Shown here: positions 21,301 to 24,300 of the stretch, piece by piece
Layout: each line of letters begins with the position of its first letter
Position numbering within the stretch: the first letter of the stretch is position 1
Source: Okamejei kenojei
Taxonomy: Eukaryota
Direction of reading: 5' to 3'
Assembly: GCA_035221665.1 (NCBI GenBank)
Contig: CM069167.1
Location: 14,198,001-14,262,000 of the forward strand
Length of the DNA: 64,000 nt
The notes under the pieces: generated by a model
What the model saw: the letters and a program-made list of their open reading frames with translations, nothing else
What the model was told of the DNA's origin: nothing
Database searches by the model: none
Program-made: the position numbers and the translations under genes

Positions 21301-24300
21301 ACTGTTACTGGCCCACTATTTTCAGACTGAGATGGACAGACTGTTCCGAAATAACCTCCCCTTTAACGGGCACTGGCAGTAAAATAGGGATTAATGGTAT
21401 TGTGTCCTTAGTTTCCGCAGATGTGTCAGTTTTGAAAAATAGATGTCCCTTAATGGGGGAATTCCAGTTGGAACAGTTTGCTCATTCTTAGTACGGATAC
21501 AAAGGAAACTACTTGATCCCCGCTGGTTAGCAGCAAGTAGCCAACTGATCCATCTGTAATATTATGGATTTGTGGCTCTATTGCAATCTTTGGGGAATGG
21601 TTTCTGATGAAGTGGAGTAATGTGGTGCAAACAGTTTCAACTATTGTGAAACCCCTACTGCCAAGCATGCCAAGTATCTCCCTCACCTTCACAGGACGTC
21701 ATGTCGGGGCTTGTCCGGTTACATCTTGGGCCTGTCTGAGGTTTCACTGCCCGAAAAGCGGGTTGCAAAAAGGTTGGAAGTCAGGAGTGAGTAGATTGCT
21801 GCTTTCTGCATCTTGCCTAGACACTGTTCAATTTGATACAAAACTGAGAACTATTTAATTTAGGTCAGTCTGTTTCTTGTTACCTATTGATTCCATCAGG
21901 CTGGGAAAAATTTTGTTTTTAGGCATAAAGGGATCTGTGGAAAACCGACGGATAATCTTGTCAGAGGGCCATCCTGAAGGTGCATGTTTGGTGCCTGGGC
22001 TTCATGGTGTAAGGAAAACACTCTTTAACAATGCTGGACAACAGTAGAAAATCAAGGATAGCTACTGCACATTGTGATTAAAACTCCACAACCAGCTGCG
22101 TCACTTAGTATTTTTCCCAGTCTGCCAATAACAATGGGCTCAGATTTTTAAATATAAGTTTGTATTGTATTCAGGTTAATGCAGGGTAATGTTAAAGCAT
22201 ATTCAAAATAGTATTTGAAAAAACTCCTGGGCTCTAATGTTCCACACTTTTTCCTGTCCCTATTCCTTTACATAACTTTCCTGTCCTTTGCATCATCAGC
22301 TAGGATTGGAATTTTAGGGGTTACTCCACTGACGGTTTCCACAGCTGCAATATCAGAGGCATCTCTTTCCAGCCAGTAGGATGGGTGCCACTGGACAGAG
22401 ATAAAAAATACAGATTGTGGACAAGACTCTTGCATTGTTTCAGAGATCACCAAATCATGTCATTGTTTGGTTTGATTGATCTAAAGAGTTAGTAAAAAGA
22501 AAATGAAATCTAAAGAACACGTCAACAAGTAAAGCTATATATATGACGGGAGTTTAGGTAAAGTGGGGTTACTACCCAGACTGGCTGTTCAGCAATGAAT
22601 CCAGTTGCTGTCGTGTACCTTTACTCATGTCATCAGTTCCATTTTTTAGGGTATCTCACTGTTCAATCAATGAAAAGTGATACAATGCTCCTTCCAGCGT
22701 AAATTGCAAGACTAGAGAACCTGAAGAGGATGCTGACAACAACTTTACATAGTATGTCATCAGTGAAGGTGTAAGCTTTTGCCTTCACTGGAATATTAAA
22801 TGGGATTGTCTTTGTAGAGCTGGGTATGGGTTAAAGCTGACTATTTGAGATCTATATCTTGTGTACATTACCTGTTTGTGTCCATTTCTATTTAATATCA
22901 ATATGTGCTTTAATATGAGTATTTGTTTTTTTCATTTTTCGTGTACACTTTTCTTCTCTATCTCTTGTTTATCCCTGCCTTGGGATTCAGTATAGCAACA
23001 TTCAGCTTTCAAATAAGGAATAGCAAGTGAAACTTGAGCCCATTTTTGTAATGAGAAACAGACTTCAATAATAGTTTGTCAGTAAATTGTAAAGAGAAAA
23101 AAAAATAATTTGAGTCTGGGCAATAGATGCAGTGTGAGCTGAGAGTTTTCTGGAGATTGGGTTTGAGGACCTTATTTAATGACCGCGGTCCTCTGGTGAA
23201 AGCCACATGAAAGTCGGGCTGCAGAAAAGCCATCCATCCCAGCGTGTGGGACTTCTCGCCACAAGGGAATGCTCGATGCATGCTCTCCCAGCTCCACTGG
23301 TCCCGTGTCGCATGGCGGAGGTCGCAAGGAGTCCGCCAGAACTAGAGAAACGGGATTGGCTGCGGCAGTACGATGGAGGGAGTGTGCATCGGACTGGTAA
23401 ATACTATTCAATACAGAAGGGAGGAAATCGGAGTTTATTCTGGACATCTTTTAAAGTATGGATTTAAATAACAACATGCCAAATGTGGAATTGTCTGTGG
23501 TTAAAAATTATCATATAGTGACTGGTGAACTAAGCGTTGTGTTACCTTTTCTGACAACTGACTCGGTGCTGTGAATCGTAATTACATCTAAGGTAATCTC
23601 TGAACTAATTTTCAGGAATCTCGTATCCATCAGTGACCAAACTAAACCCTAGATGAGGCCAGTTAACTGGTCCTGTATTCTCCTCTATCAATACCAGAAT
23701 GGATTTCAATGATGGCCATTATAAAGGTCCAAGCAGCAATTGTCCTGGAGTGTGTGGCAATGTAATAACCTGAGACATGCAGCTTTTGTAGTTACACTTG
23801 GACATTGATGCCTTTCCTCTTGATTATACCAAGCTTTATATTGAGAGACCAAGAAATCTCAAAAATGATGTTTGCTGATCTTCCCAAGATTCAAAACCTA
23901 ACCAAAGACTAGCATCTTTATAGTATTTGATAATGAAGTTCCCTGAAATGACAATGATTGCTACATTCAGATTAAACGTAGAAGTTTAACATAGCTGTTT
24001 CCCTAACGATCTAGCTGCTTAGTTTTGCGCTTGTATTCTTGGGTGCCAGGACAGGATCATGGACCAGTAATTCTATGGTAATTTCTAGCCCTGACAACCA
24101 TAATGATGTTTGAAGCGTTATATTCATGCTACATTAGGAAAGGCAAACATAAAGGAGTATTCCTTTACAGATCTGTCTGTTTTAGACCAGAATGAGATAA
24201 CATCTGTTATTTTGCACTGAGGTTTGTGACCTGGCACTGTTTGAGGGCTGTGGTGAAGCTGGGGCTGGTTTACATTGGTTGAAAAGTAGTTGTATCTCTT

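What the first reader, a model, noticed from the sequence alone, without database searches (positions are those of the whole stretch)
22925..23402. GC-rich multi-helix RNA inside a second candidate poison exon in DDX17 intron 11
Seen: a long pyrimidine tract (22925-22980) ends in TTCAG| (22990), with a donor-like CTG|GTAAAT at 23396; in exon-11 phase the first codons are GTA TAG (immediate stop). A GC-rich island inside folds into a nested ~120-nt stem-loop: CGATGCATGCTCTC (23274-87) with GGGAGTGTGCATCG (23378-91), 14 bp; CTGGTCCCGT (23297-306) with ACGGGATTGG (23350-59), 10 bp; TGGCGGA (23313-19) with TCCGCCA (23332-38). Further hairpins: GAGGACC/GGTCCTC (23165-93) and TGTGGGA/TCGCCACA (23245-63). 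The many G-U pairs suggest selection on RNA structure rather than a transposon palindrome. The outer helix ends 5 nt before the donor. It may be an unannotated structured element (helicase sensor) or an intronic ncRNA.
Basis: partly seen in the sequence, partly recalled or inferred. Interest (0 to 1): 0.75.

Follow-up and report, generated by a model that had tools for sequence, protein, structure and literature searches.

The report
Shared DDX17/DDX5 poison-exon RNA stem
An intron of DDX17, a gene for an RNA-unwinding enzyme, holds a likely stop-codon exon whose exit site is spliced in a related species, and its RNA is predicted to fold there into a stem whose two arms are also kept in the sister gene DDX5, which likely lets these enzymes limit their own production.

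Summary
The element is single-copy and has no Rfam match. In one distant relative, RNA contigs run from the donor (23396) into exon 12. No joint to the acceptor 22990 was seen; three closer relatives show whole-intron retention instead. Human DDX17 has a published, RT-PCR-validated poison exon in the same intron. New here: the outer 13-bp stem and an upstream 6-bp hairpin recur, in order, in intron 11 of the paralog DDX5 and nowhere else in 2.76 Gb, with three pair-preserving changes. Against: the folding z-score is not unique in this intron (3rd of 309 windows), the two inner helices do not covary (7 of 8 touched pairs broken), and the stem does not mask the donor. Helicase sensing is inferred from the plant DEAD motif, not shown.

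The parts
19098..19157 (+). DDX17 exon 11 (60 nt, ATDVASRGL, ends in phase 1)
   Evidence: spliced to exon 10 and to 25464 in contigs of X1, X5, X10; human exon 11 is also 60 nt
19158..25463 (+). Intron 11 (6306 nt), selectively retained
   Evidence: covered by contigs in X1, X5, X10 at 17-33% of retained+spliced word depth while the adjoining 197 nt of intron 10 have no cover
22925..22990 (+). Pyrimidine tract and candidate acceptor AG (22989-90); use not observed
   Evidence: 82% pyrimidine, no AG between 22919 and 22990; AG unchanged in organisms A and C; no joint
22991..23396 (+). Candidate poison exon, 406 nt, TAG at 22993-95, stops in all three frames; 3' end supported by RNA, 5' end predicted
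   Evidence: organism F contig lies on 23043-23396 and continues into exon 12
23108..23142 (+). Sequence block shared with paralog DDX5 intron 11 (28 of 35 identical) and with organism F
   Evidence: L007 9455-9489; 23114-36, 1 difference
23165..23193 (+). Hairpin P1; 6 bp identical in the paralog, loops unrelated
   Evidence: pair probability 0.95-1.00 in both genes
23204..23271 (+). Three further short blocks shared with the paralog (23204-11, 23245-59, 23265-71); possible helices P2 and P0 have low predicted probability
   Evidence: pair probability at most 0.07, cost 1.3-7.7 kcal/mol when forced
23274..23391 (+). Outer stem P3 (23274-87 with 23378-91); 13 bp kept in the paralog around an unrelated insert (90 versus 49 nt)
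23297..23359 (+). DDX17-specific inner helices (23297-306/23350-59; 23313-19/23332-38) and apical loop; sequence kept without gaps in organism F but register not fixed
23394..23404 (+). Alternative donor (GT 23397-98), 5 nt 3' of the stem; used in organism F
   Evidence: loose end behind 23396 = exon 12 letters; 1 of the 3 best U1 matches among 426 GT sites of the intron
25464..25698 (+). DDX17 exon 12 (helicase motif VI), the acceptor partner of both donors

Best explanation
The element is the 3' half of a likely poison exon of DDX17, whose donor at 23396 is spliced to exon 12 in a related species, and it is predicted to fold into a stem, also kept in DDX5, that likely acts as a gauge of DDX17/DDX5 helicase activity. 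Shown: intron 11 is selectively retained; the donor is used in organism F; any transcript spliced there carries a stop codon before motif VI; two helices are shared with DDX5. [quoted passage not shown] The stem does not work by base-pairing the donor itself.
For: Donor use: X21/X22 (one sample) contigs align over 23248-23396 and continue with 29 letters that match exon 12 of this gene at 25 of 29 (all four differences synonymous; 21 of 29 to the paralog; counted by hand). Retention. Selection: 2 and 6 differences in 561 nt in organisms A and C against 12.8 and 19.3 expected from the intron average (Poisson P about 3e-4 and 4e-4; the two are not independent). Paralog: both paired-arm patterns hit exactly 2 places in 2.76 Gb, the two introns 11, controls 0; P3 has 10 pairs the same, 2 changed on one side, 1 on both sides, 0 of 13 broken. 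Human DDX17 poison exon in intron 11, 231-236 nt, about 1% inclusion in control cells, RT-PCR validated with primers in exons 11 and 12 (PMC12894984 passages and supplementary rows). Precedent: plant DEAD motif senses DRH1 helicase activity (bioRxiv 10.64898/2026.01.23.701338); yeast DBP2 intron retention is relieved in a helicase-dead mutant (as cited in PMC4695336); DDX5 lowers DDX17 expression (PMC1920232, abstract start).
Against: No joint at 22990 or 23396 in X1, X5, X10 contigs or in 628 laid reads of X23; donor use rests on one sample of one other organism. The donor costs only 2-3 kcal/mol to open, less than the exon-11 donor (6.6), so it is not masked by pairing. Inner helices: 1 of 8 touched pairs kept, 7 broken, 0 compensated; differences are not significantly enriched at unpaired sites (8 of 57 versus 6 of 23, P 0.21). 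Five of organism F's 19 differences lie near piece ends and are not listed, so the outer stem could not be checked in F. Only two sequences bear on P3 covariation and its 3' arm is invariant, which also fits a protein-binding site. Homology with the human poison exon is positional only (61-67% versus 66-72% of the intron; 406 versus 236 nt). No helicase experiment exists for this element.
Confidence: 0.45

Rival explanations
1. Decoy exon: the exon and its stem mainly engage U1/U2 unproductively and so hold intron 11 retained in the nucleus; the structure sets splice-site competition but is not read by the helicase.
For: Whole-intron retention is the only alternative form seen in organisms A, B, C; intron-retained DDX17 RNA is a partly nuclear, long-lived class in human cells (PMC13561874 passages); poison inclusion is about 1% in human control cells; the DDX5 intron is described as lacking a poison cassette (PMC5737842 passage) yet keeps the stem.
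Against: In organism F the unbranched contig goes from the element straight to exon 12, so the donor is productively spliced there.
Confidence: 0.27
2. The shared blocks are primary-sequence binding sites for splicing regulators; the fold is largely a by-product of G+C richness.
For: z ranks 3rd of 309 windows; G+C 59% versus 40% for the intron; inner helices not covarying; several shared blocks (23108-42, 23204-11, 23265-71) have no probable partner.
Against: Four shared blocks are mutually complementary and all 3 changes in P3 keep pairing while the enclosed sequences are unrelated in length and content; the paralog's region also folds better than shuffles (z -2.39).
Confidence: 0.15
3. A stand-alone intronic RNA (microRNA precursor or snoRNA-like) is cut from this stretch.
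For: The same intron ends in a mir-3064-like hairpin (Rfam RF03840, E 2.5e-9 but below gathering, in the paralog); human DDX5 intron 11 hosts miR-3064 (PMC4807562 passages).
Against: No Rfam match at gathering or at E below 8; no C box; the only ACA near the 3' end (23413) lies 22 nt past the stem, is changed in organism C and is spliced out in F; large internal loops are unlike a Drosha substrate (established knowledge).
Confidence: 0.06
4. The long imperfect stem is an ADAR editing substrate that tunes the neighbouring donor.
For: A23349 reads G in the RNA contigs of organisms C and F and faces a C in one register; Ddx5 splicing changes in Adar mutants (PMC7462079 passage).
Against: Organism A keeps A there; with no DNA run laid, a genomic difference is the simpler reading; no cluster of A>G changes.
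Confidence: 0.05

Closest known systems
Plant DEAD motif in DRH1/RH14 and RH46 (PMC12218528, passages; bioRxiv 10.64898/2026.01.23.701338, abstract, Discussion and first quarter of Results read)
   Same: Conserved stem in a long intron of the DDX5/DDX17-type helicase gene, present in two paralogs, next to an alternative splice site that gives stop-carrying transcripts; retention and cassette forms coexist.
   Different: DEAD is one 19-20-bp hairpin with a 3-5-nt loop that base-pairs an alternative 3' site; here a 13-14-bp stem encloses 90 nt of further helices and lies 5 nt upstream of a 5' site that it does not pair. No sequence comparison was made; covariation and helicase dependence are shown for DEAD, not here.
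Human DDX17 intron-11 poison exon (chr22:38489223-38489458; PMC12894984, passages and supplementary rows)
   Same: Same gene, same intron, similar relative position, same downstream acceptor (exon 12), low steady-state inclusion.
   Different: 236 nt against a predicted 406 nt; tandem donors 5 nt apart in human; sequence homology not testable here; no RNA structure discussed in the passages read.
Autoregulatory conserved intron of yeast DBP2 / S. pombe dbp2 / human DDX5 (PMC4695336 passages; Barta and Iggo 1995 and Moore 2011 seen only as citations)
   Same: Retained intron in the same helicase family, proposed negative feedback.
   Different: No defined RNA structure or poison exon in the passages read; fission yeast uses Mmi1/exosome decay.

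Membership tests
Poison (PTC) cassette exon | Donor spliced to the next coding exon | tested here: met
   organism F only, 2 runs of 1 sample; not seen in 4 runs of organisms A, B, C
Poison (PTC) cassette exon | Acceptor spliced to the previous coding exon | tested here: inconclusive
   no 19157>22991 joint; F contigs begin at about 23041-48; an extended exon 11 (alternative 5' site) is not excluded
Poison (PTC) cassette exon | In-frame stop more than 50 nt upstream of a downstream junction | tested here: met
   TAG 22993-95; stops also with three other possible acceptors and on read-through of exon 11
Poison (PTC) cassette exon | Isoform rises when nonsense-mediated decay is blocked | not testable with these tools
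   needs an experiment
Poison (PTC) cassette exon | Conservation above intron background | tested here: met
Plant DEAD motif | Intron of a DDX5/DDX17-type helicase gene, in both paralogs | tested here: met
Plant DEAD motif | Single 19-20-bp hairpin with 3-5-nt loop | tested here: not met
   13-14-bp stem around 90 nt (49 in paralog)
Plant DEAD motif | Alternative 3' splice site base-paired in the stem | tested here: not met
   DDX17: a donor 5 nt beyond the stem, 2-3 kcal/mol to open. The paralog has an acceptor-like site (L007 9749) in the stem's extension, about 12 kcal/mol to open, use untested
Plant DEAD motif | Significant covariation | tested here: inconclusive
   P3: 3 pair-preserving changes between two sequences; inner helices none
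Plant DEAD motif | Splicing shift needs the host helicase's activity | not testable with these tools
   needs an experiment
Rfam ncRNA families (miRNA, snoRNA, cis-elements) | Covariance-model match | tested here: not met
   (best E 8.4, opposite strand)
Dispersed repeat or transposon palindrome | Many genomic copies | tested here: not met
   1 match each for 23140-23410 and 22880-23150 in 2.76 Gb; patterns hit only the two paralogs. The search skips very common words, so this is strong but not absolute

The most novel reading that the evidence does not exclude
Vertebrates carry their own helicase-gauge RNA, older than the DDX5/DDX17 duplication, and the two copies have been rewired to opposite splice sites: in DDX17 the stem controls the donor of a poison exon, in DDX5 its extension hides an acceptor. 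One shared structure, opened by either enzyme, would give the physical basis of DDX5/DDX17 auto- and cross-regulation and a convergent or very ancient counterpart of the plant DEAD motif.
Probability: 0.25. Interest if true: 0.8.

Novelty: new variant of a known kind. Interest (0 to 1): 0.6.

Why it matters
DDX5 and DDX17 control splicing of many genes and are dosage-linked (DDX5 lowers DDX17, PMC1920232), and feedback through this intron has been proposed from yeast onward without a defined vertebrate cis-element in the papers I could see. A 13-bp stem and a 6-bp hairpin that survive in both paralogs, beside a donor that is used, give exact bases to mutate and make the question directly testable. 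The poison exon itself and the retention are already known in human, which caps the surprise.

Tried and rejected
Rfam: nothing over the element; nothing at E up to 1 over the DDX17 3'-end hairpin. Repeat origin rejected. No RNA holder was listed as on record as RNA: X1, X5, X10, X21, X22 are guessed RNA; their exon-exon joints and lack of cover in intron 10 show spliced RNA. X23 read pile at 22982-23105 has adapter and poly(A) loose ends at a genomic A-tract and is best read as internal priming, not as an acceptor or transcript end. MAFFT could not align the paralogous cores because of the insert, so no covariance model was built; helices were compared by position. Helices P2 (23204-09/23243-48) and P0 (23267-71/23405-09) are possible in both genes but have pair probability at most 0.07 and are not claimed. 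Human DDX5 alternative acceptors lie at distances that match AG sites of the paralog in 4 of 5 cases, but an AG lies within 4 nt of half of all positions, so this is only a lead. Exon 6 did not separate the paralogs and Pfam found nothing in either last exon; naming the second gene DDX5 rests on its lower match to DDX17, a 1266-nt intron 11 (human DDX5 1236 nt) and the mir-3064 match. Earlier findings by place and sequence: none. Ten literature searches found no paper describing a structure shared by DDX5 and DDX17 intron 11; subscription papers (including Moore 2011 and Barta and Iggo 1995) and the tables of genome-wide structure screens were not seen, nor were bioRxiv supplements.

Full report
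Setting. The window is G000:C37:14198001-14262000 of a 2.76-Gb genome. Motif-bearing exons of a DEAD-box helicase gene run along the + strand; the exon coding ATDVASRGL is the 11th (19098-19157, 60 nt) and the next begins at 25464. Exon 12 matches human DDX17 (6UV0) at 141 bits. One close paralog lies on C23 (125 bits to DDX17); its intron 11 is 1266 nt (human DDX5: 1236 nt, PMC4807562 passage) and ends in a mir-3064 match, so I call it DDX5 (inference).

Observation. All helices, the tract, the AG at 22990, the GTA-TAG phase and the donor are as described; the fifth hairpin is only 5 bp. The 126-nt fold is -58.7 kcal/mol, z -3.19, with the three helices at pair probability 0.76-1.00. Energy alone does not single it out: 3rd of 309 intron windows by z, first by energy; a coarser scan that cut the outer helix gave z -1.71; the 331-nt region gives z -0.78. 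It is single-copy and has no Rfam match.

RNA evidence. In contigs of X1, X5 and X10 (organisms A, B, C; three studies) the 19157>25464 joint is present and the whole intron is also assembled, at 23%, 17% and 33% of retained plus spliced word depth (a crude measure), while the 197 nt of intron 10 in the stretch have no cover. This is selective retention. No joint to 22991 or from 23396 is listed in these runs or in 628 laid reads of X23; contigs drop rare forms, and human control cells show only about 1% inclusion. In organism F (X21 and X22, one sample, next to no shared 31-mers) a 442/435-nt contig lies on 23043-77, 23114-36 and 23248-23396 (149 nt, 19 differences, no gaps) and then continues with 29 letters of exon 12, 25 of 29 identical to this gene with synonymous differences only (counted by hand). 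So the predicted donor is used in a distant relative. The two contigs start 7 nt apart, short of 22990, so the acceptor is untested and an extended exon 11 remains possible; either form stops before motif VI.

Conservation. Over 22900-23460 organisms A and C differ at 2 and 6 places, against 12.8 and 19.3 expected from their intron averages; between 23047 and 23413 at 0 and 1. Comparing DDX17 intron 11 with the paralog's, clear similarity above the resampled maximum stands at 19158-19607 and 22908-23357, with marginal excess in four other of 41 windows including the 3' end. In the element, the paralog keeps in the same order the block 23108-42, hairpin P1, three short blocks, both arms of the outer stem P3 and a short block past the donor. 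Patterns made of the paired arms hit exactly two places in the genome, these two introns, with 0 control hits (the patterns were drawn from these two loci, so the result shows that there is no third copy and that chance hits are rare, not independent discovery). P3: 13 pairs in both genes, 10 unchanged, 2 changed on one side (G-U to A-U, U-G to C-G), 1 on both sides (G-C to A-U), none broken; P1: 6 unchanged pairs, unrelated loops. Both are predicted at 0.95-1.00 in both genes. Since human has both genes, the module predates their duplication (inference).

Against the drawn structure. Of 14 listed differences in organism F, 8 touch pairs of the minimum-energy fold: 1 kept, 7 broken, none compensated. 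Alternative registers exist (23306-09 with 23349-52 becomes fully Watson-Crick in F; 23315-18 with 23333-36 is unchanged; the loop change at 23325 keeps a GNRA-type tetraloop if that loop forms, my reading), so an inner domain may persist with a sliding register, but this is not covariation. Five further differences near the piece ends are not listed, so P3 is unchecked in F.

Splice-site geometry. The donor is one of the 3 best matches to a recalled U1 consensus among 426 GT sites (8 of 11; the exon-11 donor 7 of 11) and costs 2-3 kcal/mol to open: the stem abuts it but does not hide it. In the paralog the stem continues downward and pairs a pyrimidine tract and AG (L007 9733-9750, about 12 kcal/mol), and a donor-like site sits inside the stem (6.8 kcal/mol); neither was tested with RNA.

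What is known. PMC12894984 (passages and rows of supplementary files 3, 9, 10) reports a human DDX17 poison exon between exons 11 and 12, 231-236 nt, at 66-72% of the intron; the candidate here lies at 61-67%. Retention of DDX5 and DDX17 introns across vertebrates is reported (PMC5688624, PMC5737842, PMC13561874; passages). The plant DEAD motif is a covarying hairpin whose opening by DRH1 exposes an alternative acceptor. Yeast DBP2 feedback through the conserved intron is cited in PMC4695336. DDX5's helicase activity acts on a stem-loop at the tau exon 10 donor (table entry in PMC9895063). Ten searches found no description of this shared vertebrate structure; the library lacks most subscription papers.

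Mechanism and verdict. Shown: retention, donor use in one relative, stop codon, selection, two helices shared with DDX5. Inferred: decay of the spliced form, and that opening of the stem by DDX17/DDX5 raises donor use, closing a negative loop (0.45). Rivals: decoy exon for retention (0.27), sequence-only sites (0.15), small RNA (0.06), editing (0.05). It works like the plant DEAD motif but is not a member: shape and splice-site type differ. New variant of a known kind; interest 0.6.

Noticed in passing
window 19311-19370; L007 8754-8816: A second block shared by DDX17 and DDX5 intron 11 (78% over 63 nt) that starts at an acceptor-like AG (19313); human DDX5 uses an acceptor 118 nt into the intron, the paralog's AG is 115 nt in.
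   Followed up: partly
window 25376-25463; L007 9846-9908: A mir-3064-like hairpin pairs the pyrimidine tract region of the exon-12 acceptor in both paralogs (11 bp; 7-9 kcal/mol to open in DDX17). Rfam detects it in the paralog (E 2.5e-9) but not in DDX17. It could be a second structure-gated splice site rather than only a microRNA precursor.
   Followed up: partly
L007 9518-9546: In the paralog the 3' arm of hairpin P1 contains an AG 366 nt upstream of exon 12; human DDX5 uses an acceptor 370 nt upstream. DDX17 has no AG there. Positional lead only.
   Followed up: partly
L007 9659-9763: In the paralog the shared stem encloses a donor-like site (9675) and its extension masks an acceptor-like site (9749), the plant DEAD geometry; untested.
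   Followed up: partly
window 22242-22299 and 24428-24499: Two further pyrimidine tracts with long AG-free zones ending in acceptor-like AGs inside intron 11.
   Followed up: no
window 19890-20015 and 20570-20695: AT-rich windows of intron 11 with z below -3; 20306-20822 also draws contigs from other loci, so part is repeat-derived.
   Followed up: no
window 46851-46948: Partial U2 snRNA match just above the gathering score (47.7 bits), 5' part only; likely a pseudogene fragment.
   Followed up: no
window 17460-17690: Inverted-repeat-like insertion in intron 10, by its look a short interspersed element (recalled resemblance, not searched).
   Followed up: no
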